From the NCBI GenBank assembly GCA_016213885.1, contig JACQZM010000117.1, positions 1 through 19,079 on the forward strand: a DNA stretch of 19,079 nt, in the 5' to 3' direction. The position numbers and the translations under genes are program-made. The notes beneath the pieces were generated by a model. The model worked only from the letters and a program-made list of their open reading frames with translations, ran no database searches and had not been told where the DNA came from. This DNA comes from Candidatus Rifleibacteriota bacterium (GTDB taxonomy: Bacteria > Muiribacteriota > UBA6191 > JACPRK01 > JACQZM01). This document shows, one piece after another, positions 1,713-16,493 of this stretch. Each line of letters starts with the position of its first letter. Within the stretch, counting starts at the first letter, position 1.

Positions 1713-2534
1713 ATGGAATGGCTCGCCTGGTGGAACCTGCTGTTCGAGCTCCCGATCGCGGGGGCCTGCCTCCTCTCCGTGGTGGCCACCATGGGGGCGG
1801 ACGCCTCGGCCGACGCCCCCCACGACGCTGACGCGTCCGTCGAGCACGACACCGACGTGGGGCACGAGGCGCCCCTGGAGGCCGGGCACGTCCTGGGCGT
1901 GAAGGACGCCCTGGGTGACGCCGCCCACGCCGTGGACTCCAAGGAGGCGCTGGCCGGCGGCGGTCACGGAGCCGACGCCAAGGCGCTCGTCTCCTCCGGC
2001 CACGGGTCGGTCGCGACCGGCGCCGGGCCGTGCCCCCCCGCGAGCCACGATGTCCCCTGGCTCACCTGGGTGCTCGCGCTCCCCGGGGCGGATCGGGCGC
2101 CGCTGTCGTTCGTGCTCATCGTCCTGTCCGTGTCGTTCGGGCTCATCGGGCTCGTGGCGAACCGGTTGCTCTCGGGTCTGTTGCCGCCGCTGGCGTTCGT
2201 CTGGATCTCCCTGGCCGTGGCCGGCTCGATGAGCCTCCTGGTGACCCGGACGTTCGCCCGCACCCTCGGCCGGTTCCTGCCCCGGATGGAGACGTACGCA
2301 CTGACCCGGGCGGACTGCGTCGGACAGGTCGGGAAGATCACCTGCCTGCTGTCGCCCCGGGAGGGCTACGCCCAGGTCTACGACCCGCAGAAGAACTTCC
2401 TGGAAGTGCGGGTGGTGGCCCGGGGCCAGACGACGTTCTCGCAAGGGGGGCAGGTGCTGCTCCTCGAGTACGAAGAGATCAACAGCCGGTTCGTGGCCGA
2501 ACCGTTCAACCCGGAGCTCGGCGCTTCGACCTAG
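1713..2534 (+). CDS. NfeD-like membrane protein (YqiJ/YuaF-type partner of SPFH/flotillin proteins)
   Basis: 273-aa ORF with hydrophobic N-terminal and central TM segments (LSFVLIVLSVSFGLIGLVANRLLSGLLPPLAFVWISLAVAGSMSLL). C-terminal beta-rich OB-fold-like region 'GQVGKITCLLSPREGYAQVY…FLEVRVVARGQTTFSQGGQVLLLEYEE' is typical of NfeD C-termini. Stop TAG at 2532-2534 sits 16 nt before the flotillin ATG. This is the classic nfeD–flotillin operon arrangement. Confidence 0.75.
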   Translation: MEWLAWWNLLFELPIAGACLLSVVATMGADASADAPHDADASVEHDTDVGHEAPLEAGHVLGVKDALGDAAHAVDSKEALAGGGHGADAKALVSSGHGSVATGAGPCPPASHDVPWLTWVLALPGADRAPLSFVLIVLSVSFGLIGLVANRLLSGLLPPLAFVWISLAVAGSMSLLVTRTFARTLGRFLPRMETYALTRADCVGQVGKITCLLSPREGYAQVYDPQKNFLEVRVVARGQTTFSQGGQVLLLEYEEINSRFVAEPFNPELGAST

Positions 2535-2550
2535 GAGGGCGATACCAGCC

Positions 2551-4434
2551 ATGTTCAAGATGTTCCTCTGGATCCTTCTCTCCATCGCGATCATGCTCGG
2601 GCCGATCACGGTTCCGGTGCTGCAGCAGCATCTGAACTACCCTGCCCAGGTCATCGTCTCCGGGTTCGGCTTCTTGATGTTCATAGGCGGGCTGTCCGTG
2701 GTCACGATCACCCGGCTCTACATCCGCCCCGCCGCCAACGAGGCGTTCGTCCGCACCGGCATGGGAGGGACCCAGGTGGTGCTCGACGGCGGCGCCTACC
2801 TGATCCCGGTGGTGCACCAGCTCGTCAAGGTGCCGCTCACCACCACGCGGCTCGACGTGGACCGGTCCGGCCCCGACTCGCTCATCACGGCGGACAAGCT
2901 CCGGGCCGACCTGAAGGCCGAGTTCTACATCCGGGTGATGCCGCAGGTCGAGGACATCAAGACCGCGGCCCGGTCGTTCGGCGACCTGGCGGGCCAGCCG
3001 CAACGCATCGCCCAGATCGTGAACGACAAACTGATCAGCGCCCTGAGGTCCGTGGCTGCGAACAAGACGCTGGAAGAGCTCAACACCCGCCGCAACGAGT
3101 TCGCCGCGGAGGTGAAGCAGCAGGTGGAGGCAGACCTCAAGCACAACGGACTCACCCTGGAGACCGTGACGATCTCCAAGCTCGACCAGACCGATCCCAA
3201 GAACCTGAAGGCGGACAACGTGTTCGACGCGCAGGGGCTGAAGCGGATCACGGAGATCACCACGGAGGCGGCGGTGCGCAGGAACGAACTGGAGCAGGCG
3301 GCCCAGCAGGCGATCAAGGAGCGCAACGTCAAGACCCGGCAGCAGGTCCTGCTGCTGGAGCAGCAGCAGGCCGAGGCGGAGGCGAACCAGCAGGCCCAGG
3401 TCGCCAAGGTGAAGGCGGTCAAGGACGCCGAGGCTCGCCAGGCCCAGATCGAGCAGGAGCAGGCGGTGCAGGAGCGTGAGGTGGAGCGGGTGCGAGCCAT
3501 CAAGGCAGCGGAGCTGGACGCCCAGAAGAAGGTGCTGGAGAGCGAGCGCGTCCGGGAGCTGGCCGACGTGGAGAAGCAGAAGGCGATCGAGACGGCTAAC
3601 CAGGAGAAGCAGATCGCCGTGGCCCAGGCCCAGGCCCAGCGCGCCCAGGCGGAAGAGCAGCAGTACGCCAGGATGGCCGAAAGAGAGAAGTCGGTGCAGC
3701 AGGTCGAGACCGTGAAGGTCACCGCGGCGGCGGAGCGCGACGGCGAGCAGAAGCTGATCGCGGCCTCCAAGGCGGCGGAGCAGGAGCTGGTGCGGGAGCA
3801 GCGCAAGGCCGATGCGGCGGCGTACAAGGTGCTCAAGGAGGCGGAGGCGAAGAAGGCCGCTGCCCAGGCCGAGTACGAGGCCAGGCTGAAGGCTGCCGAG
3901 GCGGAGGCCGAGGCTGCCAAGAAGAGGGCCGAAGGGGCCACCGCGGAGGCCATGGTGCAGGTGACCGTGCAGCAGAAGCAGGTGGAGGTCGAGCAGCAGC
4001 GGGTCGAGGTGGAGGGGCACCGGCTCTCGATCCAGGAGAGCTACGGCCGCGCGGCCATCGAGCTTCAGCTCAGGATGAGAGAGCTCGAGGTGGCGGCCCA
4101 GGTGGAGGTCGCTCGGGCCCAGGCGCTGGGCACCATGCTCTCCCGGGGCAACTTCACGATCTACGGCGACCCGGCCACCCTGTCCAACCTGGCCGAGGCG
4201 TTCAACAAGGGGATGGGGTTCCGGCAGATGGCCGAGGGGTTCCTGTCGGGTCAGGCGGGGGCGAGCCCGCTGGGCGGCCTGGTGAGCGCCGCCGCCGATC
4301 TGGCCGCCAAGCTGACCCGGCCCGACGGGGCCAAGGCTCCGGCGGACCAGCCCGCCGCGCCGCCCCCGGCTCCGCCGATGGACCAGGCTGCGCCCGCGGA
4401 CCAGGCCGCGCCGGGGCCGACGAAGAGCGCCTGA
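2551..4434 (+). CDS. Flotillin-family SPFH/Band-7 domain protein (YqiK/FloT-like) with long Glu/Ala/Gln-rich coiled coil and Pro/Ala-rich C-terminal tail
   Basis: ATG at 2551 preceded by AGGAGG (2534-2539). Shows an N-terminal TM helix (MFLWILLSIAIMLGPI), then an SPFH core (YIRPAANEAFVRTGMGG…VVLDGGAYLIPVVHQL…TTRLDV…LITADKLRADLKAEFYIRV). About 300 aa of EAEA/QQ coiled coil follow, then a 'GFLSGQAGASPLGG' tail typical of flotillins. Confidence 0.9.
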   Translation: MFKMFLWILLSIAIMLGPITVPVLQQHLNYPAQVIVSGFGFLMFIGGLSVVTITRLYIRPAANEAFVRTGMGGTQVVLDGGAYLIPVVHQLVKVPLTTTRLDVDRSGPDSLITADKLRADLKAEFYIRVMPQVEDIKTAARSFGDLAGQPQRIAQIVNDKLISALRSVAANKTLEELNTRRNEFAAEVKQQVEADLKHNGLTLETVTISKLDQTDPKNLKADNVFDAQGLKRITEITTEAAVRRNELEQAAQQAIKERNVKTRQQVLLLEQQQAEAEANQQAQVAKVKAVKDAEARQAQIEQEQAVQEREVERVRAIKAAELDAQKKVLESERVRELADVEKQKAIETANQEKQIAVAQAQAQRAQAEEQQYARMAEREKSVQQVETVKVTAAAERDGEQKLIAASKAAEQELVREQRKADAAAYKVLKEAEAKKAAAQAEYEARLKAAEAEAEAAKKRAEGATAEAMVQVTVQQKQVEVEQQRVEVEGHRLSIQESYGRAAIELQLRMRELEVAAQVEVARAQALGTMLSRGNFTIYGDPATLSNLAEAFNKGMGFRQMAEGFLSGQAGASPLGGLVSAAADLAAKLTRPDGAKAPADQPAAPPPAPPMDQAAPADQAAPGPTKSA

Positions 4435-4439
4435 GGCCC

Positions 4440-4483
4440 CGGGTCCGACCTACCGGCTCGACCAGAGCGTGGCGATCGCCTGC
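4440..4483. repeat. 44-bp perfect direct repeat of 5199..5242 (last 11 codons + stop + 10 nt of 3' flank of the kinase gene)
   Basis: cgggtccgacctaccggctcgaccagagcgtggcgatcgcctgc occurs identically at 4440-4483 and 5199-5242. The first copy starts 6 nt after the flotillin stop. Confidence 0.85.
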
Positions 4484-4485
4484 GA

Positions 4486-4727
4486 ACCACCAGCCAGGCG
4501 AGGCAGAAGCCGTCCCATCGGCGAGGAGCCCGGGCCGGTTCCGGCGCCTCGGCGGCCGGGCCGGACACCCTGGCACACTCCGGGGAGCGCTCTCCGGCAC
4601 CGGGCTGACCGACGCGCGATCGGAGCGATCCGATCCGGCCGGTCCGGAGGTGAGTGCCCCCGGGGTACGCGGGATCTTCGGCGGGTTGCACGCGCACCGT
4701 GAGACGCTCGGGAGGGTGCCGGGCAGG
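4486..4727 (-). pseudogene. Displaced, degenerate fragment of the 3' region of the kinase gene (homologous to 6167..6429), joined directly to the 44-bp terminal repeat; lacks the ~920 bp encoding the membrane domain
   Basis: By eye, ~240 bp align with 6167-6429 at roughly 90% identity. The first ~95 nt are identical. Later differences include 9-nt and 11-nt indels that break the kinase frame. The translated fragment (ORF 4251..4697 '-': RVQPAEDPAYP…EAPEPARAPRRWDGFCLAWLVV) mirrors the kinase linker region RVHPAEDPAYP…WDGFCLAWLVV. Confidence 0.7.
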
Positions 4728-4735
4728 GGGGTGGG

Positions 4736-4930
4736 ATCGGAACTGGGATCAGATTTCGAGGGTGCCATCTTGGCGGTGTACCCCACAGCGTCCAGGATCG
4801 GAGTGTTGATGATCGTGATGGACGACCCGGTGTCCAGCAGGCAGGTCACGTCCCGGAAGCCGAAGGGACCGTGAACTCGCGCCTGGACCCAGACCTCCCG
4901 CTCCTTGGGGTCAAACCTGACGGTCCACAC
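4736..4930 (-). pseudogene. Retropepsin-like (clan AA) aspartic protease, only the N-terminal ~65 codons including the DTGSS active-site motif; 3' part replaced by the displaced kinase fragment (six-frame ORF 4202..4930 reads through into it and into antisense flotillin)
   Basis: GTG start at 4928-4930 overlaps the stop of the upstream small gene by 20 nt. Reads 'VWVQARVHGPFGFRDVTCLLDTGSSITIINTPILDAVGY', matching the strand / D-T-G-S/A / hydrophobic pattern of bacterial retropepsin-like domains (Asp_protease_2 type). The flap and C-terminal 'hhG.D.L' elements are missing, because homology to the kinase-fragment repeat begins at ~4727. Confidence 0.5.
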
Positions 4931-5156
4931 GGAGCGCCGCCCTCAGCTTCTCGCCTCGCTTCTTCCCGGTCCACACGATCGCTGCCTCGTTCAGGTGCTT
5001 GGCCATCTCGATGAGCGTGGCGTGATCCGGGCTGTGCGCATAGACGATCCCGGAGAGCGGAACGGGCTCCGTGTTCGGCCAGACGTGGTCCACCAGAGCG
5101 ATCCACTCGTCGGCGTACGTCTCCTTGATTTCGTCCCAACTCAGCTTGTCGGCCAT
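4911..5156 (-). CDS. Small DUF5678-like protein (81 aa) often found with retropepsin-like protease genes
   Basis: ATG at 5154-5156 with GAAGGAG 8 nt upstream on the minus strand. The sequence 'ETYADEWIALVDHVWPNTEPVPLSGIVYAHSPDHATLIEMAKHLNEAAIVWTGK' fits the DUF5678 pattern ('GEWVAI … GKVVAHG.D…L.E.AK … I'). The stop overlaps the protease GTG start. GC is lower than neighbouring DNA. Confidence 0.55.
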   Translation of the reverse strand: MADKLSWDEIKETYADEWIALVDHVWPNTEPVPLSGIVYAHSPDHATLIEMAKHLNEAAIVWTGKKRGEKLRAALRVDRQV

Positions 5157-5198
5157 CTATCTGGCTCCTTCGGCAAGATCCGTCGCTCAAGCATAACT

Positions 5199-5242
5199 CG
5201 GGTCCGACCTACCGGCTCGACCAGAGCGTGGCGATCGCCTGC
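5199..5242. repeat. Second copy of the 44-bp direct repeat (inside the 3' end of the kinase CDS)
   Basis: Identical to 4440-4483. Contains the kinase stop codon (cta at 5209-5211 on plus = TAG on minus). Confidence 0.85.
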
Positions 5243-8200
5243 AAGACAGCCACGCCCAGCGTGCTCAGCACCCCGATCCACCACCGCCGTCGCTTCATCT
5301 CGCTGGCCAGAAGGGCCAGCGAGCCCACGATGGCGATCGGCGTGACCGCGAAAAAGAAGAACACCCGGTCGCCGGAGGAGGAGACATTCTGCAGGGCCAG
5401 CGACACGGCAGACACCGCCAGCGAGCTGACGAGCAGCACCCACGGCTGGACCGAAGGGTGCCCGCAGAACGCCCGGAACGCGAGGAGCGTGCCCAGGTAG
5501 GTCGCGACCCAGAGCGAAATCGCGAGAGCGGCACCCGCCCTGCTCTCCACGACGGCGATGAACGAGACCCAGAGGAGTGCCAGGATGCCCAGACGGTAGC
5601 TCACGCGCGGGGGCAGCTCCGGGGCCGGGTACAGCAGCTGGGAGAGAAACAGGACCACCGCCGGGCCGAAGGAGGCGACCAGCTGCACGAGGGGGTCGAG
5701 CTTGCCCTCGATGATCGCGTGGACCCCGAGGGTCAGTCCCAGCCAGAGGCCAAGCAGCGCGCCGCGGAGCTTCCAGGGCGAGAGCACGACCTGACGGCCG
5801 GGATAGAACATCAGGGCGAAGACCAGCGCCGGGACCGAGAGACAGACCCCCACGAGGAACGCCTGCTGCCCCTGCGGGCGGGGGACCAGCAGCGGGATCG
5901 CGATCATCACGATGACGGCATGGCCACCGAGGACGGCGAGAACGGTCCGTCTGCCGATCGGTTCGCAGGGGAGCTGCAGGTGGAGCGACCCTGCCGTCGC
6001 CGAGGCGCCGGGAGCAAAGCCCGCGGGCCAGCGGCACCAGGGCAGGACCATCAGCGCGATGACGCCGGCGTAGAGTCCCATGAAGAATGACGTCTCGGGG
6101 TACCACCCTTGTCGGGGGCACAACCCGGCGAGTCCGCTCAGCGGGAACCAGAGGACCGCGACCAGGACCACCAGCCAGGCGAGGCAGAAGCCGTCCCATC
6201 GGCGAGGAGCCCGGGCCGGTTCCGGCGCCTCGGCGGCCGGGCCGGACACCCCGGCACGCTCCGGGGGAGCGCTCTCCGGCACCGGGCTGACCGGCGCGCG
6301 ATCGGAGCGATCCGGTCCGGCCGGTCCGGTCGGTCCGGAGGTGAGCGCCTCCGGCCGATCCAGGGGGTACGCGGGATCCTCGGCGGGGTGGACGCGCACC
6401 GTGAGACGCTCGGGAGAGTGCCGGGCAGGCCAGACAGGATCCGATGAGTCCCGGGCGCCTCTCTCGATCGGAGGGGAGATGCGATCCGCGAGGCCGACCC
6501 GGGCGAGCGCCTGACTGAACTCCGAAACGAGAGCTCCGACCGTCCGGGGTCGCTCGTCACGCTGCTTGGCCAGAGCTCGCAGCACCACCGCCGCGACCGG
6601 GGAGGGCACGCCCTCCGGTTCCGGCACGGGCGCGTTCTGGATCGCCCAGGCGAGGTCGCCGCCGGAGAATGGCGGGGAGAGGGTCAGCATCTGGTAGAGC
6701 GTGGCCCCCAGGGCGTAGACGTCCGACCGCACGTCGAGCTTCTGACACGCCATCTGTTCGGGACTCATGTACGCGAGGGTGCCGGTCGGCACCATCCCGG
6801 TCTGGCGCGTCCGGAAGCTCGCCAGCTCCGCGGCGACTCCGAAATCGGCCAGCTTCGCTCTCACGCACCCGTCCGGTCCGGTCTCGAGCAAGACGTTCGA
6901 TGGCTTGAGGTCCCGGTGGATGATCCCGTGGTGGTGGGCGTGGTCGAGCGCAGCGGCCACCCCCTCCAGGATCGGCAGAGCCTCCCGTGGTGTCATCGGA
7001 CCGGCGTCGCTCTCGTTCCGGGAGGCCAGCTCGTCCGCCAGCGTCCGACCTGCGACGAACTCCATCACCAGGAAGGGAGGGTCGCCAGGCTCCAGGTTCA
7101 TCAGCCGGACGATGTTCGGATGGGTCAGCTTGAGCGAGAGCCTGGCCTCCTTGATCAGGTTCGTCCGGGATTCGCTGTCGCACCAGAGCTCGAGGGGGAG
7201 CAGCTTCACGGCCACCTCGCTCCCCTCCATGGCGCCGTCCCTCGCGAGCCACACCTGGCCCATGCCGCCGTGACCCAGAAGACGAACGAGCCGGTACCGG
7301 TCCGCCAGCATCCGCCCTTCGACGGGGTCGAACCGGTCCGGCGGGGGCGGTTTCGGCCGCTTCGGGGAGCTCTTCTTGCCCGGCGCGACGGTCCGGTAGA
7401 TCCGGAGCAACGCCTTGCGGAACTCCGACGCCCCCTGGAATCGTCGCGCGGGGTCCTTCTCCAGCGCCCTCTCGATCACCTCGTCGAGCTCCCCGGGAAG
7501 ACCGGGCCTGACCGAGCTGGCCAGGGGAGGCTCGGTCATCATGTGCTGGTAGAGGTGCTCCGGGATCGTCGGGCCCGGGAACGGGAGCTGACCGGTGACG
7601 ACCTCGAACAGCACGACCCCGACGGCGTACAGGTCGCTCGCCGGTGTGCACCGCTGTCCGCGACACTGTTCGGGCGACATGTACGCCGGGGTCCCCATGA
7701 TCTTCCCCGCGACCGTTCCGGACGGAAGGTGCTGCGCCCTGGCGAGGCCGAAGTCGCCGATCTTGGGCTCACCCTCTCGCGAGAGGAAGATGTTGGCGGG
7801 CTTCAGGTCCCTGTGCACCACCCCCTTGTCGTGGGCCACCTTGAGTCCTCCCAGAACCCTGAGCACGATGCGCAGGGCCTGTCGCAAGGAGAGGCGCGTC
7901 GGGTCTCTCAGGCGCTCTTGCAGCGAAGAGCCCTCCACGTACTCGCACACCACGTAGGGCAGGCCGCCGTCGTGGCCGGCGCCGTGGACCGCCACGATGT
8001 TCGTGTGGTTCAGGGAGGCCAGGACCTTCGCCTCCTTGACGAGCCGCCGGATCTGTTCGGTCGAGAGCTCGTCCCCTCTGACCACCTTCACGGCGACCAG
8101 CCGGTCGAGCTCGATCTGACGCGCCAGGTAGACCTTTCCCATCCCGCCCTCGCCCAGCGTCCTGATGATCCGGTACTGGGTCATGAAGGCCTGGGAGAAC

Positions 8201-8364
8201 CGGGCGAGGATCGGATCCGGAGGAGTCGTGGTGGCGCAGGTCTCCGGACCGGCGCCGACGACCACCGCCCGTCCGCACGAAGGGCAGCTGGCGCGGCCGC
8301 TGGAGTCGACGACGAGCGCCACCCGGTCCGGGCAGTGAGGGCAACAGAGCACGCCGTCGGTCAC
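5209..8364 (-). CDS. Membrane-anchored tandem Ser/Thr protein kinase: N-terminal C4 zinc ribbon, two Hanks-type kinase domains, Pro-rich linker, C-terminal ~9-10 TM domain (PglW-like?)
   Basis: 1051-aa ORF with GAAGGAG RBS upstream of the GTG start. Zinc ribbon: CCPHCP-x17-CPSCG. Kinase domain 1: LGEGGMGKVY, VAVKVV, HRDLKPANIFL, DFGLAR, GTPAYMSPEQ. Kinase domain 2: LGHGGMGQVWLA, VAVKLL, HRDLKPSNVLL, DFGVAAE, GTLAYMSPEQ. C-terminal ~330 aa form successive hydrophobic helices (e.g. LAWLVVLVAVLWFPLSGLAGL, VIALMVLPWC, AVIVMIAIPLLV, LVGVCLSVPALVFALMFY, LGILALLWVSFIAVV, FFFFAVTPIAIVGSLALLA). Confidence 0.9.
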   Translation of the reverse strand: MTDGVLCCPHCPDRVALVVDSSGRASCPSCGRAVVVGAGPETCATTTPPDPILARFSQAFMTQYRIIRTLGEGGMGKVYLARQIELDRLVAVKVVRGDELSTEQIRRLVKEAKVLASLNHTNIVAVHGAGHDGGLPYVVCEYVEGSSLQERLRDPTRLSLRQALRIVLRVLGGLKVAHDKGVVHRDLKPANIFLSREGEPKIGDFGLARAQHLPSGTVAGKIMGTPAYMSPEQCRGQRCTPASDLYAVGVVLFEVVTGQLPFPGPTIPEHLYQHMMTEPPLASSVRPGLPGELDEVIERALEKDPARRFQGASEFRKALLRIYRTVAPGKKSSPKRPKPPPPDRFDPVEGRMLADRYRLVRLLGHGGMGQVWLARDGAMEGSEVAVKLLPLELWCDSESRTNLIKEARLSLKLTHPNIVRLMNLEPGDPPFLVMEFVAGRTLADELASRNESDAGPMTPREALPILEGVAAALDHAHHHGIIHRDLKPSNVLLETGPDGCVRAKLADFGVAAELASFRTRQTGMVPTGTLAYMSPEQMACQKLDVRSDVYALGATLYQMLTLSPPFSGGDLAWAIQNAPVPEPEGVPSPVAAVVLRALAKQRDERPRTVGALVSEFSQALARVGLADRISPPIERGARDSSDPVWPARHSPERLTVRVHPAEDPAYPLDRPEALTSGPTGPAGPDRSDRAPVSPVPESAPPERAGVSGPAAEAPEPARAPRRWDGFCLAWLVVLVAVLWFPLSGLAGLCPRQGWYPETSFFMGLYAGVIALMVLPWCRWPAGFAPGASATAGSLHLQLPCEPIGRRTVLAVLGGHAVIVMIAIPLLVPRPQGQQAFLVGVCLSVPALVFALMFYPGRQVVLSPWKLRGALLGLWLGLTLGVHAIIEGKLDPLVQLVASFGPAVVLFLSQLLYPAPELPPRVSYRLGILALLWVSFIAVVESRAGAALAISLWVATYLGTLLAFRAFCGHPSVQPWVLLVSSLAVSAVSLALQNVSSSGDRVFFFFAVTPIAIVGSLALLASEMKRRRWWIGVLSTLGVAVLQAIATLWSSR

Positions 8365-8610
8365 GAGAGCTCTCCTTCGAGCCGGGCGCCGCTGCTGGCG
8401 GGCTCGCTCTTCCAGGGCCTCGCGATGGGCGCCGAGCGCAGCGTCGTCGGGTCCATCCTAGACCATCGCTCTCGAAGTTCCCAGGCAGTTGTCAGACCGC
8501 ACGCACGGGAGCTGGGAGCTGCCTGCCGGACACCGGCGTCGTCGCGGAGCCCGACGCCACCCGGACGAGTCCGTGAGGCCGTCTCCAGTAGACGCTCGGC
8601 AGCCACGGCA

Positions 8611-10743
8611 CTACACCAGAAACGCCGCCAGCAGGTCCGCCTCGGGACCGGCGAGCTCCCGCACCTCCGAGAAGGTCGCGGCCACCTCGACGACCCCCGT
8701 GGCCAGCAGCCGCTCGACGACCTGCCGGCGCCGGATGTCGATGGGCACGAGCCGGGCGTGCGCACCGGGCTCCTGGAGACGCTCCAGCCGCTTCCAGCAG
8801 GTCGCGACAGCCCGTTCGAGCGTCCGCGGATCGAGCCTGAGCGCCGCGGGTGACGGCGCCGCGTCCAGGGTGATGCTGGCGTCGCCTGCGGCACGGATCC
8901 GCAGGCCACTCCCGGCAAGATGCGCCGCCAGCGCCCGCGTTCCGGCTCCCCCGAGAAACGGGAACACGGCGATCCTCCCCGGCCCCGCCGGGATCACCGG
9001 GACGACCCCGACGGGGATGCCCAGGTGCTCCCGGACCGCCTGGGCCAGCCCGAGCGAGATGGGCATCGGGGCGGTGAAGTAGCGCGGCGCCTGGGCGGGG
9101 CCCGGGCCGGACCGATCGAGATAGGCCCGGCCGTCGGCGGTCGTGGTGAGGTGCCCGGTTCTTCCGGCGAACGCCACCGGTCCGGCCGCCGGGATGCCGG
9201 ACCGCTGGACGTCCCCGAGATGCTCGTGGGTCCCCGCATCGAACACGGCCACGGTGTCGCGGACCTGGCCCATGTTGGTGTGGAGCTTCCGCGGATCGGT
9301 CTCGAACCAGCGCTCCAGGGTCGGCCCGATGCCGTATCGTCCGCCCCGCGCCACGGTGAGCAGCCCCTGCTCGGTCATGGCGACCAGCACGGCCTGAAGG
9401 TGCAGAGCCGGACCGGCCGGGTCGACGACCCCGTCGGGGTCGGCCAGCAGCGCCTCGATCTCCGGACGCCCCACGGTGCCGCTGGAGCGCTGCAGCAGGT
9501 AGCTCGCGATCTGCTGGACCAGCACCGACGCCGCGAAGATCCGGCCGGGGCGCTCGATCTCGCCCTTCCGCGCCAGCGAGAGGATGACCTCGAACATCAC
9601 CTCGTCGGCCCTGCCGCGGGCGACGCCGAGCACCCTCGTGACGTCCTTTCTCCGGCGACAGCCACGGCCGATCTGCTGGAGGAACGAGGTGACGCTGGGG
9701 GGCGCGCCGACCTGGACGACCCAGTCCACGTCGCCGATGTCGATGCCGAGCTCCAGCGTCGAGGTGGCGACGAACACGGCCTGGGCGGCCCGGTGGAACG
9801 CCTCTTCTGCCGCCAGCCGGGTGCTCCTGGAGAGGCTCCCGTGGTGGGCGTAGACGTGGTGTCCCCAGGGAGCTTGCCCTGCGAGCTCCGCCGCCACCTC
9901 CTCGCATCCGGCCCGGCTCCGGGTGAAGACGAGCAGCTTGGCCGCCCCGGAGCGGGGAATCCGCCGGAGCGCCTGCAGCACCGTGCCGCCCCCGGCGAGC
10001 GGTGCGCCGATCGTCTCGATGGTCCGGCTCCCCGCCACCCGGAGGACCCCGGCGCCCGGTGCGAACGCCGCGGCGAGCGAGGCCGGGTCCGCCGCCGTGG
10101 CCGATACCAGGACGGTCTGGAGCGTCGAGCGCGGGTCTCGATCGCCCCGGTCCACGGCCGCCCGGTGGATCCGGCGCACCCTCGACATGAGGATGCCCAG
10201 CTGGTCGCCCCGGGGCGTGCCGTCCACGAGATGGATCTCGTCGAGCACCACCGCACGCACCCCGACGAGCTCCCCGGGCCTTCTCACCAGGAGCGAATCG
10301 AAGCTCTCCGGAGTCGTGATGAGCCACGGCGAGAGCCGCCCCTGTCGGCTCACCGGGTGGTCCGCCGTCTTCCGGCCCAGGACGATGCCGAGTCGCTCCA
10401 GTGGCGGAGCCAGCCGGCGGTAGAGGTCGTTCACCAGCGCCCGGGTGGGGCAGACCCAGAGAAGGGCCGCTCCGGCGTCGGCTCGGGCGAGGTGAAGCTC
10501 GGCCAGAGGCGCCGCAACCGCCTCGGTCTTGCCGCCGGCGGTCGGCGCAGCGACGACGGCGCTCTCCCCGGCCAGGAGCCGGGGGATCGCCGTCCGCTGG
10601 ATCGGCGTCAGTCGCCCGAACCGGCCGAAGAACGCGGGGCCGCAACGCCGGAGGGAGGCGAGGATCGCCCGCTCCAGAGCCCGATCGCTCTCCGGCTTCG
10701 CGAGAAGACCCGGCGGGGTCGAGGGCTCACGATTCGCGGTCAC
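8611..10743 (-). CDS. DEAD/DEAH-box superfamily-2 helicase, Lhr-like (BrxHI-like)
   Basis: 710-aa ORF. Its GTG start overlaps the stop of the upstream gene by 17 nt (gtgaccgcgaatcgtga). Motif I AAPTAGGKTEA, motif II VVLDEIHLV (DEIH), motif III VSATAAD, helicase C-terminal motif VI QQIGRGCRRR. A ~300-aa C-terminal extension follows, as in Lhr-type helicases. Confidence 0.85.
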   Translation of the reverse strand: MTANREPSTPPGLLAKPESDRALERAILASLRRCGPAFFGRFGRLTPIQRTAIPRLLAGESAVVAAPTAGGKTEAVAAPLAELHLARADAGAALLWVCPTRALVNDLYRRLAPPLERLGIVLGRKTADHPVSRQGRLSPWLITTPESFDSLLVRRPGELVGVRAVVLDEIHLVDGTPRGDQLGILMSRVRRIHRAAVDRGDRDPRSTLQTVLVSATAADPASLAAAFAPGAGVLRVAGSRTIETIGAPLAGGGTVLQALRRIPRSGAAKLLVFTRSRAGCEEVAAELAGQAPWGHHVYAHHGSLSRSTRLAAEEAFHRAAQAVFVATSTLELGIDIGDVDWVVQVGAPPSVTSFLQQIGRGCRRRKDVTRVLGVARGRADEVMFEVILSLARKGEIERPGRIFAASVLVQQIASYLLQRSSGTVGRPEIEALLADPDGVVDPAGPALHLQAVLVAMTEQGLLTVARGGRYGIGPTLERWFETDPRKLHTNMGQVRDTVAVFDAGTHEHLGDVQRSGIPAAGPVAFAGRTGHLTTTADGRAYLDRSGPGPAQAPRYFTAPMPISLGLAQAVREHLGIPVGVVPVIPAGPGRIAVFPFLGGAGTRALAAHLAGSGLRIRAAGDASITLDAAPSPAALRLDPRTLERAVATCWKRLERLQEPGAHARLVPIDIRRRQVVERLLATGVVEVAATFSEVRELAGPEADLLAAFLV

Positions 10744-12424
10744 GGCGCGGTCCCTCCACGAACGAGGCGATCTCGTCGGCGACTCGAGCCCAGCTCCAGC
10801 CCGATCGGGCGCGGACCAGATCGAGCCCGTTGACGACGGTCTGGACGACCTCGCGGAGGTTCTTGAACGTGCCGCTCTCGAGCCCGCTCTCGAAAGCCAG
10901 CGCGAGCCGCCTGCGGTCCTGCGGACCGGGTGGTGGAACCGCGGGGAACGCCCACCGGTAGGTCGCGTCGACGCGCTCGATCAACGAGGTCAGCTCGGCC
11001 TCGCCGAGACGGCCCGGCAGGGGCGTGACAAGGCTCTTGTCGGGCAACCACGAGACCAGATCGTCCTGGCCGGGCGCGGGGGTGCAGGCGACGACCAGGC
11101 CCAGGTTCGCCGGCGGCCGCCAGCAGAACGGGATCTTCTTCCTGCCGCCCTGGTAGGAGCCGCCGAGGTATTCGACCGGCAGCGAAGGACCCAGCGCGCT
11201 GGCCACGAGACCTTTGAAGAAGTCGACGGCCCGGCCCTCCATCTCGACGGAGAGGAGTCGCAGGTGCTCCGCCTCGTCGAGGAGGACGACGAGACCGGCG
11301 TGGCCCAGCAGGCGCACCAGGTCGGCCAGGCCGCTGATCAGGTAGGTGAAGTGGCTCGAGAGAGTCGTGTACGAGCCGAGGGAGAGCAGCGCCTGTCGGG
11401 CCGTGCGGACCGCGACCCGAGCCCGGAGGTCGTCGAGGTCGACGTCCTCGCCGGAGATCCACTGGTAGAGGTAGTCCTTGCCAGCGGCATCGCCGGACAA
11501 TCCCTGCCAGTTGAGCAACGTCGGTCCGAGGAACTCGTGCCACGCTCCTCGCCTCCGGCGAGCGAACGAATCGACGACCACCGGGGAGAGCACGGCCCGG
11601 TCGAGCAGCCCCACGAGCCCTCGTCCTCGCGCGTCCTCGCCGGGGACCCTGAGTGACTTCACCAGGGAGCGGTAGACGTTTCGGGGATGGTTCGCCTGGC
11701 ACTCGAACGCGTCGAGGTCGGCCCGCGCCACGACGAAATCCTCGTGGAGCGCCATCCTCCAGATGACGTCCAGCGCGTGGCTCTTCCCGCTGCCGTACGG
11801 CGCCGAGATCACCCTGACCGATCCACCGCGACGCGCCCTGGCCAGGTCGGCGGCGAACAGCCGACGCTCCCTCTCGAGCCCCACCGAGAGCGCCTCCACG
11901 GCGTAGCGCGGGACGATGCCGAACCGCAGCGCCTCCACGACGTTGCGACCCACCCGGCCCCGCCACCGGGCCCGCTCCTCCGGATCCACGGGATCCTGCC
12001 GGGGCTGCTCCTCTAGGCGTGGCCGGGCCGGCTCGTCCCGGGGGCGCTCACGGAGCCCCGACCCGGCGGGCTGACCCGGCGGGAGCTCGGGGGAGCTCTC
12101 GATCGCAGCCGGTGGTGTCGCCGGCGCAGCCCCGGACGCCGCTCCGGACGACGCCGGGGCGGGTGGCCCGTCCGCGACGGCCGTGACCTCCGGGCGCCGG
12201 AGCCAGATCACGAGCCCGATCGGAGGGTCCAACCGCACGAAGAGCTCGTGGCCGCCGAATCGCTCCGCGACCACCGTGCCGTGGCACCGGAAGCGCCCGA
12301 CCAGGACCCGGAACCCGATCATCGACGTCACGAGCGATCGCCGTCCCTGGTCAGTACTCGCCGCCGGCCTCGGCCTCGGTCTCCGATCTCGAGAGCGCCA
12401 GAAGCGACGTCTCGATCGGCGCAT
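10727..12424 (-). CDS. DUF2791/BrxD-like P-loop ATPase, paralogue of the upstream gene; annotated ORF start probably too far upstream (low-complexity N-terminal ~150 aa)
   Basis: Walker A 'VISAPYGSGKSHAL', Walker B 'LVVLLDEAEHL'. N-terminal block 'VGRNVVEALRFGIVPRYAVEALSVGLERE…GGSVRVISAPYGSGK' parallels 'ATRIIHRLGESGQPPTRGVQYFNVGNTRLLD…GGSSFKLVVGQYGGGK' of the adjacent BrxD-like protein. Overlaps the upstream gene by 74 nt as drawn; an internal start (e.g. MIGFRV…) would reduce this. Confidence 0.7.
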   Translation of the reverse strand: MRRSRRRFWRSRDRRPRPRPAASTDQGRRSLVTSMIGFRVLVGRFRCHGTVVAERFGGHELFVRLDPPIGLVIWLRRPEVTAVADGPPAPASSGAASGAAPATPPAAIESSPELPPGQPAGSGLRERPRDEPARPRLEEQPRQDPVDPEERARWRGRVGRNVVEALRFGIVPRYAVEALSVGLERERRLFAADLARARRGGSVRVISAPYGSGKSHALDVIWRMALHEDFVVARADLDAFECQANHPRNVYRSLVKSLRVPGEDARGRGLVGLLDRAVLSPVVVDSFARRRRGAWHEFLGPTLLNWQGLSGDAAGKDYLYQWISGEDVDLDDLRARVAVRTARQALLSLGSYTTLSSHFTYLISGLADLVRLLGHAGLVVLLDEAEHLRLLSVEMEGRAVDFFKGLVASALGPSLPVEYLGGSYQGGRKKIPFCWRPPANLGLVVACTPAPGQDDLVSWLPDKSLVTPLPGRLGEAELTSLIERVDATYRWAFPAVPPPGPQDRRRLALAFESGLESGTFKNLREVVQTVVNGLDLVRARSGWSWARVADEIASFVEGPRRDRES

Positions 12425-13643
12425 CCCAGGAAGGAACCGGCGACTCGCCGTCGACGGATTGCTGCATCAGATGGGCCACCAGAGTCTTCACGAACACCCG
12501 CCGCTGGTTCACCGAGAGCGTCTGCTCGTAGCACCTGCGGGCCAGGGCGCCGATGTTCGCAAGCTGCAGCCCCCGGTCGAACGACCGCCCCTTGTACACC
12601 TCGAACACCGCCAGGATCTTCTCCCCCATGGCGACGAGCAGCTCCTCCCCCGGGAGATCGAGCTCGTCGAGGTCGATACGGGGGGAAAAGGGGTTCCGCT
12701 CCGAGAACACCGTGGGGGCTTCGAGCCGCTGGTGCAACGCGGCGTACCGCGGCACCACGCTCTCCAGGAAATCCGGGGTCACCGAGTAGACGAACAGCGC
12801 CCCGGGGAGCTCCTCGTCGCCGCAGTGGTTCACCACGGAGAGCAGGTTCTCGCAGGCGTACTTCTGGGAGCGCGCGCTCATCATGCTGACCATCCGTTGC
12901 CCCTCGTCGAAGAGCAAGATCAACCCCTGGTAGCCGAGCTCCCTCACGAGCTGGCAGAGGTTCCGGAGCATGCGAAAGGCGTTGTGCTGGTGGGGAGCCT
13001 CGATGATCCCGAACGACCGGAGCTCGCCCCGTTCCAGCTCGTCGCCCTGGAGCCAGGAGCCCAGCGAGCTTCGGGTCTGCTCGTCGCCGCTCGCGACGGC
13101 GCCGACGAACCGCTGGACGGCGTTGCGGAAGCTGGGGTTCTCGACCTTGATCCGCCCCAGCGACTGCACGAACGCATCGAGCATCGCCCCGGTCTCGTCG
13201 GCGTTCTCGGCCTGGGCCGACAGGCGGCTGGAGAGCCCGTAGTAGTGGCCCTTGAGGAACTCGTCGACCCCCCTCTCCGGCTCCGAGGCGGCATCGCCGG
13301 GCGGGGCCTGGATGTTGCGAGCCACGGCCTGGTAGACCCGCAGCGGATCGTCGTACGGACACTCCTTCTGGGAGAGCTGCACGAAGCTCGTGGCGAAACC
13401 GTGCTTCCAGGCGAGCTCCCGGAGACAGAACATCAGGTGGGTCTTGCCGCCGCCGTACTGACCGACCACCAGCTTGAACGACGAGCCTCCCTCTTTCAGG
13501 TATGACTCGAGGTACTCCCTGGTGAGCGTGTCCAGAAGCCGGGTGTTGCCGACGTTGAAGTACTGGACGCCTCGGGTCGGAGGCTGGCCGCTCTCCCCGA
13601 GTCGATGGATGATCCGGGTCGCGTCACGTTTCGAGGGGAGCAT
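12351..13643 (-). CDS. brxD: BREX-type ATP-binding protein BrxD-like (DUF2791 family P-loop NTPase)
   Basis: 430 aa. N-terminal 'ATRIIHRLGESGQPP…GVQYFNVG…GGSSFKLVVGQYGGGKTHLMFCL' (Walker A), 'GLILLFDEGQRMVS' (Walker B). Size and motif order are typical of DUF2791/BrxD. ATG at 13641-13643. Confidence 0.7.
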   Translation of the reverse strand: MLPSKRDATRIIHRLGESGQPPTRGVQYFNVGNTRLLDTLTREYLESYLKEGGSSFKLVVGQYGGGKTHLMFCLRELAWKHGFATSFVQLSQKECPYDDPLRVYQAVARNIQAPPGDAASEPERGVDEFLKGHYYGLSSRLSAQAENADETGAMLDAFVQSLGRIKVENPSFRNAVQRFVGAVASGDEQTRSSLGSWLQGDELERGELRSFGIIEAPHQHNAFRMLRNLCQLVRELGYQGLILLFDEGQRMVSMMSARSQKYACENLLSVVNHCGDEELPGALFVYSVTPDFLESVVPRYAALHQRLEAPTVFSERNPFSPRIDLDELDLPGEELLVAMGEKILAVFEVYKGRSFDRGLQLANIGALARRCYEQTLSVNQRRVFVKTLVAHLMQQSVDGESPVPSWDAPIETSLLALSRSETEAEAGGEY

Positions 13644-13661
13644 GAGGAGTCGTCGCGCCTC

Positions 13662-14564
13662 CTAGCGCAGGCCGATCGCCTGGAAGTAGCTGCCGCCGCC
13701 CTTCTCGTCCGGCACCCAGAGCGAGCGGCCGTAGGCCCGGTCGTGCACCGCCACCTCGAGCTCCAGCTTCCGGCCTCCCACCTCGAAGCGCCGGGAGGCC
13801 CTCAGGCGGGCCAGGTCGTGGGCGAAGCGGAAAAGCGGGTAGTCCTTGAACCGCTTGGCGCTGGGGTCGCGCCGGAAGCCCTCGGACTGCATCTCCCACG
13901 CCAGGTGGCCGAAGAAGGCGAGGATGTCCACCAGCTCTCCCGGCGCCCTGTTCGCCGCCGTGACGCCAAGAGCATAGGCCGCGCTCAGGTGACGCAGAAA
14001 GACGTCGGGATCGAACGGCGGGATCTCGAGGTCGCCCAGGAACCGGGCCGTCGCCTCGCCGACCGCCTCCGGGTCCAGGGCGAGGCCTCGCAGCACGGTC
14101 CGCCGGGCGAACTCGACCTGGGCCCGGCCCGCCGCCGCGTCGATGACGATGCGGATCGCCCCGCAGGCGAACCCGTTGTCCGTGGGTTTCAGTTCCGGCC
14201 CTTCCGGGAGCAGTCTCGCAAGCGTCGCGGCCAGGGCGGTTCCGAAACGGGCAGCCGCGCGGCCCTCCGCGGCACGGGCCGCCTCTTCCAGGCCGTCCAG
14301 CGCCGGCTCGACGTTCGGTGCGCCGGCGACCTTCGAGGCCAGGTCCCGCAGGTGCTTCACCGAATCGAGCACCTGTCGAGGCGCCGCCTCGAGTCGTGGC
14401 ACCTGCTTGGCGAGCGTGGCCACGGCCCGGTCGAGCTCCGCGGCCAGCTTGGCGGCCCGGGAGGTCTCGACCCGCAGCGTCTCGAGGCGCTCGATGGTGG
14501 ATCGGTGGGCGCCGGGCGGCGCCGGCTGGTCGGTCTCGTCAGGCATGTCGCCATTGTAATACAT
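13662..14564 (-). CDS. Hypothetical protein (300 aa), predicted coiled-coil N-terminal third, no recognisable catalytic motif
   Basis: Clean ORF 18 nt upstream of brxD-like and 51 nt downstream of the 624-aa gene. The AT-rich start 'ATGTATTACAATGGCGACATGCC' is unusual for this genome. Heptad-like region 'TIERLETLRVETSRAAKLAAELDRAVATLAKQVPRLEAA'. Confidence 0.65.
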   Translation of the reverse strand: MYYNGDMPDETDQPAPPGAHRSTIERLETLRVETSRAAKLAAELDRAVATLAKQVPRLEAAPRQVLDSVKHLRDLASKVAGAPNVEPALDGLEEAARAAEGRAAARFGTALAATLARLLPEGPELKPTDNGFACGAIRIVIDAAAGRAQVEFARRTVLRGLALDPEAVGEATARFLGDLEIPPFDPDVFLRHLSAAYALGVTAANRAPGELVDILAFFGHLAWEMQSEGFRRDPSAKRFKDYPLFRFAHDLARLRASRRFEVGGRKLELEVAVHDRAYGRSLWVPDEKGGGSYFQAIGLR

Positions 14565-14615
14565 CGCTTGCGAAGTTGACAGACCGTAGCACCGGACGGC
14601 CGCACGAGCCGACCG

Positions 14616-16490: not shown

Positions 16491-16493
16491 GCG

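What the first reader, a model, noticed from the sequence alone, without database searches (positions are those of the whole stretch)
4440..6429. Displaced 3' end of the kinase gene: B'–C–A–X–B–A structure with a 44-bp perfect direct repeat
Reading the minus strand, the kinase ends B'(6429→6167) – C (membrane domain, 6166→5243) – A (5242→5199, 44 bp incl. stop). After a 462-bp lower-GC cassette X comes B (4727→4486, ~90% identical to B', frame-breaking indels) joined directly to a second perfect copy of A (4483→4440).

The downstream fragment is therefore what the kinase 3' end would look like without the membrane domain. This resembles C-terminal module displacement seen in polymorphic loci (e.g. 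Rhs/CdiA orphan CT fragments). It implies the membrane-domain-encoding segment plus cassette X were acquired by recombination, leaving the old soluble C-terminus as an orphan. The perfect 44-bp repeats could still mediate deletion of C+X.
Basis: seen in the sequence. Interest (0 to 1): 0.65.

Follow-up and report, generated by a model that had tools for sequence, protein, structure and literature searches.

The report
Broken leftover copy of kinase gene end
Downstream of an intact membrane-anchored protein kinase gene lies a decayed, out-of-frame partial copy of that gene's own 3' end, fused to half of an unrelated small gene cassette; it is a real but ordinary recombination scar, not a working alternative gene end.

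Summary
The repeats are real. A 44-nt perfect direct repeat (A: 4440-4483 and 5199-5242) and a 242/263-nt repeat (B 4486-4727, B' 6167-6429) are the only repeats in the 19-kb window. On the minus strand the order is B'-C-A-X-B-A, as reported.

The downstream B-A piece does look like a displaced copy of the kinase 3' end. It is unlikely to be an ancestral "soluble" end:
- B stops inside the first transmembrane helix and A starts inside the last one.
- The B/A joint carries 2 extra nt and is out of frame.
- B has frame-breaking indels.
- C has the same codon bias as the rest of the gene.

X is a fragment of a conserved two-gene cassette (an 81-aa ORF plus a retropepsin-like protease cut at about codon 55-70).

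The 44-bp repeats would delete X+B (759 bp), not C+X. Only B'xB would delete C, and that gives a frameshifted 810-aa product.

No relative of the kinase or its membrane domain exists in any collection searched, so the orthologue test cannot be done. The window is a whole MAG contig, so an assembly error cannot be excluded.

Best reading: a non-functional insertion-duplication scar with a later internal deletion. Interest is low.

The parts
5209..8364 (-). Intact kinase gene, 1051 aa (NCBI MBI4859996.1). It has an N-terminal CxxC..CxxC motif, two complete Ser/Thr kinase domains, a Pro-rich linker and a domain of about 11 TM helices.
   Evidence: ORF and translation. Pfam Pkinase matched twice, E 1e-96. 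TM segments at aa 731-1047. Identity to the NCBI protein.
6167..6429 (-). B': linker plus the start of TM helix 1 (aa 646-733) in the intact gene. It contains a 9-nt tandem repeat, CCGGTCCGG x3, at 6312-6338.
5243..6166 (-). C: 924 nt (308 codons) encoding the multi-TM domain from mid-TM1 to mid-last-TM. GC3 is 0.90. It has no detectable homologue anywhere.
   Evidence: only the self hit among 1.84e9 representatives
5199..5242 (-). A1: the last 10 codons (QAIATLWSSR), the stop codon (5209-5211) and 10 nt of 3' flank of the intact gene.
5158..5198 (-). A 41-nt leader with an AAGGAG ribosome-binding site upstream of the 81-aa ORF. It shows no homology to the cassette relatives.
4911..5156 (-). 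Intact 81-aa ORF (MBI4859995.1, HY815_06990), the first gene of a conserved two-gene cassette. It matches no known family.
4765..4930 (-). The N-terminal ~55 codons of a retropepsin-like aspartyl protease (DTGS motif). It overlaps the 81-aa ORF by 20 nt and is truncated.
   Evidence: Asp_protease_2 profile positions 1-36 of 90. 86.5% nt identity to L162/L164-L166 over window 5157-4765 (L163 85.7% over the shorter 5157-4878 it covers), ending at 4765. A full-length relative covers profile positions 1-90.
4728..4764 (-). 37 nt of uncertain origin between the clear protease homology and B. It may be the protease's own variable loop, since a PLPG motif falls exactly 12 codons after the Met, as in the homologues. 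That would place the X/B joint at a ~10-nt microhomology, CCTGCCCGGC.
   Evidence: no other copy in the window
4486..4727 (-). B: decayed copy of B'. It has 10 substitutions (3 synonymous, 7 non-synonymous; 7 are GC->AT relative to B') and indels of 11, 9 and 1 nt. The distal 85 nt are identical to B'.
4484..4485 (-). A 2-nt filler ('tc') at the B/A deletion joint. It shifts the reading frame.
4440..4483 (-). A2: second perfect copy of A. It ends 5 nt from the stop codon of the convergent flotillin-like gene.
2551..4434 (+). Convergent flotillin/YqiK-like gene (MBI4859994.1, HY815_06985). It marks the boundary of the rearranged region.

Best explanation
The B-A piece is a non-functional remnant. 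It is a partial duplicate of the kinase gene's 3' end, left downstream of the intact gene by an insertion-duplication event.

Inferred sequence of events:
1. The gene originally ended ...B-C-A, directly against the convergent flotillin gene.
2. An illegitimate recombination event placed a new B'-C-A end upstream of the resident one. It also placed a 0.47-kb fragment of a two-gene cassette (81-aa ORF plus the first third of a retropepsin-like protease). The right-hand joint (protease to B) probably formed at a ~10-nt microhomology.
3. The likeliest route is homology-facilitated illegitimate recombination with DNA from a closely related strain. Unequal sister-strand exchange or replicative template switching with captured filler DNA is the alternative.
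4. The displaced downstream copy was no longer needed. It lost its 0.92-kb membrane-domain interior through an end-joining-type deletion that left 2 filler nucleotides, and it picked up frameshifting indels and mostly non-synonymous, GC->AT substitutions.

Shown: the repeats, the joints, the broken frames, the truncation of the protease, the native codon bias of C, and the uneven divergence.
Inferred: the order of events and the recombination pathway.

The structure is metastable:
- A1xA2 recombination (44 bp perfect) would excise X+B (759 bp) cleanly.
- B'xB recombination (85 bp perfect) would destroy the kinase's membrane domain.
For: - Repeats are real and unique in the window.
- B ends inside TM1 and A starts inside the last TM helix.
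- The B/A joint has a 2-nt filler. The B'xB recombinant would be 810 aa with a 77-aa nonsense tail.
- B has indels of 11, 9 and 1 nt; the 11- and 1-nt ones shift the frame between them. The 9-nt indel is one unit of a 9-nt tandem repeat.
- Substitutions are 3 synonymous to 7 non-synonymous, and 7 of 10 are GC->AT in B. This fits relaxed selection on B.
- GC3 of C is 0.90, equal to the kinase domains at 0.87-0.90.
- X is a cassette fragment. It shares 86.5% nt identity with L162/L164-L166 over 5157-4765 and then the match stops. Relatives always pair the 81-aa ORF with a complete protease ORF overlapping it by 20 nt.
- PGAP annotated nothing between the flotillin and 81-aa genes. Their locus tags (06985, 06990) and protein accessions are consecutive.
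- A2 keeps the same 10-nt post-stop flank as A1 and lies 5 nt from the flotillin stop.
- No RNA family, tRNA or convincing terminator lies in the region.
- Orphan definition and recombination behaviour for comparison: PMC3967940. Template-switch model: PMC2621351.
Against: - No related genome carries this kinase, so neither the ancestral state nor the order of events can be checked.
- The divergence is uneven: all 13 differences lie in the proximal 178 nt and none in the distal 129 nt (P about 0.002). Simple decay of one duplicate does not predict this. It needs either a second allele as source or partial homogenisation.
- C is exactly 308 codons. A joint without the 2 filler nt would give a tidy tail-anchored end..FCLAWLVVQAIATLWSSR*.
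- The indels in B sum to 21 nt, a multiple of three.
- The contig comes from a metagenome-assembled genome, and read support for the joints is unknown.
Confidence: 0.55

Rival explanations
1. The ancestral kinase allele ended B-A with no multi-TM domain. A segment carrying B'-C-A-X then arrived by recombination, gave the kinase a new membrane domain and displaced the old short end as an orphan.
For: - The geometry fits: the new end is upstream, and the old end is downstream next to the flotillin gene.
- C is exactly 924 nt, or 308 codons. A joint without the filler would encode a plausible single hybrid TM tail, FCLAWLVVQAIATLWSSR*.
- The uneven divergence suggests B and B' come from two lineages.
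- The C domain has no homologue anywhere. It is at least lineage-specific.
Against: - The C boundaries lie inside TM helices 1 and 11, so C is not an autonomous module.
- The actual B/A joint is out of frame by 2 nt, exactly at the joint. That is the signature of an illegitimate deletion rather than an ancestral coding sequence.
- The GC3 of C is indistinguishable from the rest of the gene.
- The donor allele must already have carried identical A and distal-B sequence. C presence or absence would then be an indel within one gene lineage, not the acquisition of a foreign module.
Confidence: 0.15
2. Assembly artefact. The contig is a chimera or mis-threaded path through 44-nt and 85-nt exact repeats in a metagenome assembly graph. 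It would combine strain variants that never coexist on one molecule in this order.
For: - The window is a complete 19,079-nt contig of a MAG labelled Candidatus Riflebacteria.
- Exact repeats of 44 and 85 nt are within the range that short-read assemblers can mis-resolve.
- The B versus B' differences resemble strain-level SNPs and indels.
Against: - The novel joints (X to B, B-tc-A, A to X) have no shared sequence that could create them in a graph. Each must exist in real reads.
- The chosen path yields an uninterrupted 1051-aa ORF with uniform codon bias. The alternative path through the 85-nt repeat would break both copies.
Confidence: 0.1
3. A functional switching system. The orphan would be a stored alternative 3' end, as with Rhs/CdiA orphans. 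Recombination between B' and B would convert the kinase of this defence-like gene string from a polytopic membrane form into a short form.
For: - It is a same-strand orphan with an 85-nt perfect homology tract to the main gene.
- The kinase sits at the end of a defence-island-like gene string, a kind of locus in which C-terminal variability is common (from general knowledge).
Against: - The recombinant is frameshifted, at 810 aa with a nonsense tail running antisense into the flotillin gene.
- The orphan encodes no distinct domain, only the main gene's own last 10 codons.
- B itself carries frameshifts.
- No partner or immunity-like gene follows the orphan.
- The substitution pattern looks unconstrained.
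Confidence: 0.04

Closest known systems
Orphan rhs-CT / cdiA-CT fragments downstream of full-length Rhs or CdiA toxin genes (Koskiniemi et al. 2014, PMC3967940)
   Same: - A gene fragment lies downstream of, and on the same strand as, the full-length gene.
- It starts with a stretch nearly identical to the main gene.
- It lacks its own translation start.
- Homologous recombination between the main gene and the fragment is geometrically possible.
   Different: - Rhs and CdiA orphans carry a different, intact toxin domain plus a cognate immunity gene, and they recombine in frame.
- Here the fragment carries only the main gene's own last 10 codons.
- The fragment is frameshifted.
- No following gene is present.
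- Recombination would give a nonsense tail.
Insertion-duplication products of homology-facilitated illegitimate recombination during natural transformation (de Vries & Wackernagel 2002; Prudhomme et al. 2002; both cited from memory and not checked here)
   Same: - One end appears anchored by homology (the kinase gene).
- The other end is joined at a short microhomology (the putative CCTGCCCGGC).
- Foreign DNA (cassette fragment X) is trapped between.
- The resident sequence is retained downstream as a duplicate.
   Different: - The donor, and whether this organism is competent for DNA uptake, are unknown.
- An extra internal deletion in the displaced copy is needed.
- The microhomology is inferred from protease homologues, not observed directly.
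Complex rearrangements by replicative template switching (MMBIR/FoSTeS; Hastings et al. 2009, PMC2621351)
   Same: - Short discontinuous duplicated segments (B, then A) are stitched together.
- The joints show 0-2 nt of filler or microhomology.
- The duplications are mixed with deletions.
   Different: - The model was developed for eukaryotic copy-number variants.
- It does not by itself explain why proximal B is 7% diverged while distal B and A are identical to the main gene.
Integrative elements that insert into the 3' end of a gene and duplicate it as att repeats
   Same: Perfect 44-bp direct repeats that include the gene's stop codon flank an insert.
   Different: - The insert is only 715 bp.
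- It contains no integrase.
- The target is not a tRNA or tmRNA gene.
- The B segment inside the insert is not explained by this model.

Membership tests
Rhs/CdiA-type orphan C-terminal module | Gene fragment downstream of the full-length main gene on the same strand, without its own translation start | tested here: met
   B-A lies at 4440-4727, 472 nt downstream of the kinase's stop-containing A1 (5199-5242), on the same strand. PGAP annotated no CDS there.
Rhs/CdiA-type orphan C-terminal module | The fragment begins with sequence homologous to the conserved part of the main gene | tested here: met
   B against B': 232/242 aligned bases identical, and the distal 85 nt are perfect.
Rhs/CdiA-type orphan C-terminal module | The fragment encodes a distinct, intact alternative C-terminal domain | tested here: not met
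   After B come only 2 filler nt and the main gene's own last 10 codons, out of frame.
Rhs/CdiA-type orphan C-terminal module | Each C-terminal module is followed by a cognate small (immunity) gene | tested here: not met
   A2 ends 5 nt from the stop of the convergent flotillin gene. The 81-aa ORF after the main gene belongs to a separate cassette. In other contigs that cassette occurs with a protease and without any kinase.
Rhs/CdiA-type orphan C-terminal module | Recombination between main gene and orphan yields an in-frame functional fusion | tested here: not met
   The simulated B'xB recombinant is 810 aa with a 77-aa nonsense tail.
Rhs/CdiA-type orphan C-terminal module | C-terminal modules are polymorphic among strains | not testable with these tools
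   No relative of the kinase or the C domain was found in genome contigs, metagenome contigs or 1.84e9 protein representatives.
Site-specific integrative element in the 3' end of a gene | Direct att repeats flank an element that encodes an integrase, usually at a tRNA or tmRNA gene | tested here: not met
   The 44-bp repeats are present. The 715-bp interval holds only the 81-aa ORF, a protease fragment and B. There is no tRNA, tmRNA or Rfam hit.
Pseudogene fragment from illegitimate recombination (rearrangement scar) | Joints with microhomology or filler nucleotides, a broken reading frame and an unconstrained substitution pattern | tested here: met
   2-nt filler at the B/A joint. Frameshifting indels. 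3 synonymous to 7 non-synonymous substitutions, 7 of 10 GC->AT. The neighbouring protease gene is truncated. The microhomology at the X/B joint is only inferred.
BREX type 2 / Pgl kinase PglW | Full-length match to the PglW model, with PglX, PglY and PglZ as neighbours | tested here: not met
   NF033442 scores 191 bits against a cutoff of 990, and the match covers the kinase domain only. No PglX- or PglZ-like gene was found in the window.

The most novel reading that the evidence does not exclude
The kinase closes a defence-island-like gene string and carries a membrane domain with no homologue anywhere. The downstream B-A piece might then be the residue of a cassette-exchange mechanism, analogous to Rhs/CdiA orphans. 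Such a mechanism would swap the membrane or sensor end of a defence-associated Ser/Thr kinase between strains. The 85-nt and 44-nt perfect tracts would serve as the recombination handles.
Probability: 0.04. Interest if true: 0.6.

Novelty: already known. Interest (0 to 1): 0.2.

Why it matters
As it stands, the main value is as an annotation and assembly flag.
- Positions 4440-4930 hold a truncated protease gene fused to a dead copy of the kinase 3' end. This stretch should not be called as a gene.
- The locus is structurally unstable. Perfect repeats of 44 nt and 85 nt could delete 0.76 kb or 1.68 kb respectively.

It would matter more if population data showed that kinase alleles with different C-terminal ends are exchanged at this site. 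That would extend orphan-module exchange from secreted toxins to a signalling or defence kinase. The present evidence points away from this.

Tried and rejected
1. Orthologous loci. The search for related loci with the whole kinase found only kinase-domain matches at up to 41% identity, in both genome contigs and metagenome contigs.
2. Homologues of B'+C+A by k-mer search returned nothing. That null is unreliable, because the search did not even find the query's own NCBI entry. The exhaustive HMMER search of C against 1.84e9 representatives found only the protein itself.
3. Exact-protein contig look-ups for window proteins found nothing on record.
4. Synteny through the flotillin gene. The closest relatives, at 70-75% aa identity (L168-L171), have unrelated genes downstream and no convergent kinase. 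They say nothing about the ancestral kinase end.
5. Is cassette X mobile or phage-borne? No match in viral contigs or plasmids. There is only a weak similarity to the candidate defence protein PDC-M08B (E 8.5e-4 to 8e-3). I therefore did not classify it as a defence gene.
6. An RNA element or tRNA integration site. There are no Rfam or tRNA hits. The one promoter-like and one terminator-like match are uninformative.
7. A templated origin for the 37 nt at 4728-4764. No second copy exists in the window.
8. Foreign origin of C by composition. Rejected, because its GC3 equals that of the rest of the gene.
Full report
**Observation.** The reported structure is present.
- The repeat finder and a whole-window self-BLAST recover two direct repeats, and no others in the 19,079-nt window.
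- A is 44 nt and perfect: 4440-4483 and 5199-5242.
- B (4486-4727) against B' (6167-6429) has 232 matches, 10 mismatches and three indels of 11, 9 and 1 nt. BLAST E-values are 1e-94 and 2e-16.
- On the minus strand the order is B'-C-A1-X-B-A2.
- Small corrections: two nucleotides (4484-4485) separate B from A2, and X is 471 nt.

**The main gene.** ORF 5209..8364(-) encodes a 1051-aa protein identical to NCBI MBI4859996.1, 'protein kinase [Candidatus Riflebacteria bacterium]'.
- The window is therefore a complete MAG contig.
- The protein has a CxxC..CxxC N-terminus, two complete Ser/Thr kinase domains, a Pro-rich linker and about 11 hydrophobic helices between aa 731 and 1047.
- B' corresponds to aa 646-733. 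It ends three residues into the first helix (..RRWDGFCLAWLVV|LVAVLWFPL).
- A starts at aa 1041, inside the last helix (..GVAVL|QAIATLWSSR*). It also includes the stop codon and 10 nt beyond it.
- C (5243-6166) is 924 nt. Its GC3 is 0.90, against 0.87-0.90 for the kinase domains and 0.90-0.94 for neighbouring genes. Nothing in its composition marks it as foreign.
- An exhaustive HMMER search of aa 720-1051 against 1.84 billion representatives returned only the protein itself. The earlier k-mer search that found nothing is unreliable, because it missed this self hit.

**Cassette X.** X is not an arbitrary spacer.
- It holds an intact 81-aa ORF (4911..5156, MBI4859995.1) and an ORF starting at 4930 that overlaps it by 20 nt. 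The second ORF has a DTGS aspartyl-protease motif.
- Three relatives of the 81-aa protein (73-77% identity) lie on short Logan and ENA contigs. In five of the seven contigs the same overlapping protease ORF follows, with a 29-nt overlap in L167; in L161 it reads through an in-frame stop and the called gene starts later, and L163 ends 33 nt after the 81-aa gene. Their upstream neighbours differ.
- Nucleotide identity to L162/L164-L166 is 86.5% from window 5157 to 4765 (L163: 85.7%, to 4878, where that contig ends) and then stops.
- A full-length relative covers all 90 positions of Pfam Asp_protease_2 (I replaced one in-frame stop in that relative with W). The window copy covers positions 1-36 only. 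The protease gene is therefore truncated at about codon 55-70.
- The 37 nt between 4764 and 4728 match nothing else in the window.
- The homologues have PLPGYTLDV exactly 12 codons after the conserved Met. The window has PLPGTLPSV at the same spacing, which is where B starts. I infer that the X/B joint formed at a ~10-nt microhomology, CCTGCCCGGC. This is not proven.

**The orphan piece is dead.**
- The 11-nt and 1-nt indels shift the frame across the middle of B. The 9-nt indel is one unit of a 9-nt tandem repeat (CCGGTCCGG x3 in B').
- In the kinase frame, the 10 substitutions are 3 synonymous and 7 non-synonymous. Seven are GC->AT in B relative to B'. This fits loss of constraint on B.
- The B/A joint carries a 2-nt filler. 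A simulated B'xB recombinant encodes 810 aa with a 77-aa nonsense tail that runs antisense into the flotillin gene. Only a joint without the filler would give ..FCLAWLVVQAIATLWSSR*.
- PGAP annotated nothing between the flotillin gene (HY815_06985) and the 81-aa gene (HY815_06990).
- No Rfam family or tRNA occurs anywhere in the window, and there is no convincing terminator in the region.

**What the repeats could do.**
- Recombination between the two A copies deletes X+B+one A (759 bp). It leaves the intact B'-C-A gene directly against the flotillin gene. It does not delete C, contrary to the finding.
- Deleting C+A1+X needs B'xB recombination (spacing 1,681-1,702 nt), for which an 85-nt perfect tract exists.
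- From general knowledge, both tracts exceed the minimal length for RecA-dependent recombination (about 25-40 bp in E. coli). This was not tested here. If it holds, the arrangement is metastable.

**Origin.**
- A2 carries the same 10-nt post-stop flank as A1 and ends 5 nt from the flotillin stop codon. The simplest reading is that A2-flotillin is the original, unbroken junction. Everything from B' to X would then have been placed upstream of the resident end.
- That is an insertion-duplication. The new B'-C-A comes first, then trapped cassette DNA, then the old B-(C)-A.
- The old copy's interior was then removed by an end-joining-type deletion. Both endpoints lie inside helices, there is 2 nt of filler, and the net loss of 922 nt is out of frame.
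- One feature argues for two lineages rather than a purely intragenomic duplication. All 13 differences lie in the proximal 178 aligned nt, while the distal 85 nt of B and all 44 nt of A are identical to the main gene (permutation P = 0.0018).
- A hypervariable linker within otherwise near-identical alleles of two strains would give this pattern. So would partial homogenisation after duplication.
- I therefore favour homology-facilitated illegitimate recombination with DNA from a close relative whose kinase was followed by the cassette. Unequal exchange or replicative template switching (PMC2621351) are alternatives. These mechanistic steps are inferred.

- The 'displaced end' geometry is right. 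The claim that the old allele lacked the membrane domain, and that C was newly acquired, is not favoured.
- The C boundaries cut two helices, the joint is out of frame exactly at the joint, and C has native codon bias.
- The claim is not excluded. C is exactly 308 codons, and the filler-free joint would make a plausible tail anchor.
- The Rhs/CdiA comparison fails on the defining points taken from PMC3967940. There is no distinct alternative C-terminal domain, no linked small gene after the orphan, and no in-frame fusion.

**Comparative test.** It could not be done.
- Scans of genome contigs and metagenome contigs with six peptides spread over the kinase, including WDGFCLAW in B' and EMKRRRWW in C, found only distant kinase domains at up to 41% identity.
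- The closest flotillin relatives (70-75% aa identity) have unrelated genes downstream.

**Caveat.** The contig is from a MAG.
- The joints X/B, B-tc-A and A/X share no sequence that a graph could use to fabricate them.
- The chosen path gives an uninterrupted, compositionally uniform 1051-aa ORF.
- I therefore consider the structure probably real. Read-level support is the first thing to check.

**Verdict.** This is a real structure with an ordinary explanation: a non-functional rearrangement scar beside an intact gene. Interest is low (0.2). The residual novel reading, exchange of C-terminal ends in a defence-associated kinase, has a probability of about 0.04.

Noticed in passing
window 8611-18581 (minus strand): A defence-island-like gene string lies upstream of the kinase.
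- An SNF2/DrmD-like helicase (16494..18581).
- Two proteins with no family match (14616..16490 and 13662..14564).
- A BrxD-like ATPase (12351..13643) and a second, partial BrxD-like protein (10727..12424).
- A BrxHI/SngC-like DEAD helicase (8611..10743).
No PglX- or PglZ-like gene is present. The kinase matches the PglW and MAD6 models only through its kinase domains, well below their cutoffs. This may be an undescribed system.
   Followed up: partly
window 5212-6207 (minus strand; kinase aa 720-1051): The ~11-helix membrane domain fused to the tandem-kinase protein has no detectable homologue among 1.84 billion protein representatives; only the self hit was returned. Its codon bias nevertheless indicates real coding sequence.
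   Followed up: partly
window 4765-5157; loci L161-L167: An 81-aa ORF and a retropepsin-like aspartyl protease ORF form a conserved two-gene cassette; the two ORFs overlap by 20 nt in the window and L162/L164-L166 and by 29 nt in L167. It occurs in varying contexts on a few environmental contigs. Only 4 members of the 81-aa family were detected, the function is unknown, and there is a weak similarity to the PADLOC candidate PDC-M08B.
   Followed up: partly
window 6312-6338 and 4617-4648: A 9-nt tandem repeat (CCGGTCCGG, 3 copies) lies in the kinase linker and encodes a Gly-Pro-rich stretch. The orphan copy has one unit fewer, which suggests slippage-prone linker length variation.
   Followed up: yes
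window 1713-4434 (plus strand); L169 7559-10292: A weak YqiJ_N-like membrane protein (1713..2534) followed by the flotillin/YqiK-like gene forms a yqiJK-type pair that is also seen in a Wallbacteria MAG contig. Genes downstream of the pair differ in all four nearest relatives, so the kinase string is not conserved next to it.
   Followed up: partly
window 4368-4413: An 18-nt tandem repeat (2.6 copies) lies in the Pro/Ala-rich C-terminal tail of the flotillin-like gene, next to the rearranged region.
   Followed up: no
window 8365-8610: A 246-nt gap lies between the helicase stop and the annotated kinase start. It is covered by an ORF (8361..8918, up to 185 aa, TTG start) that overlaps the kinase start by 4 nt and has no Pfam match. 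It may be a small coupled gene or simply non-coding.
   Followed up: no
Null results from that tool for such queries should not be trusted.
   Followed up: yes
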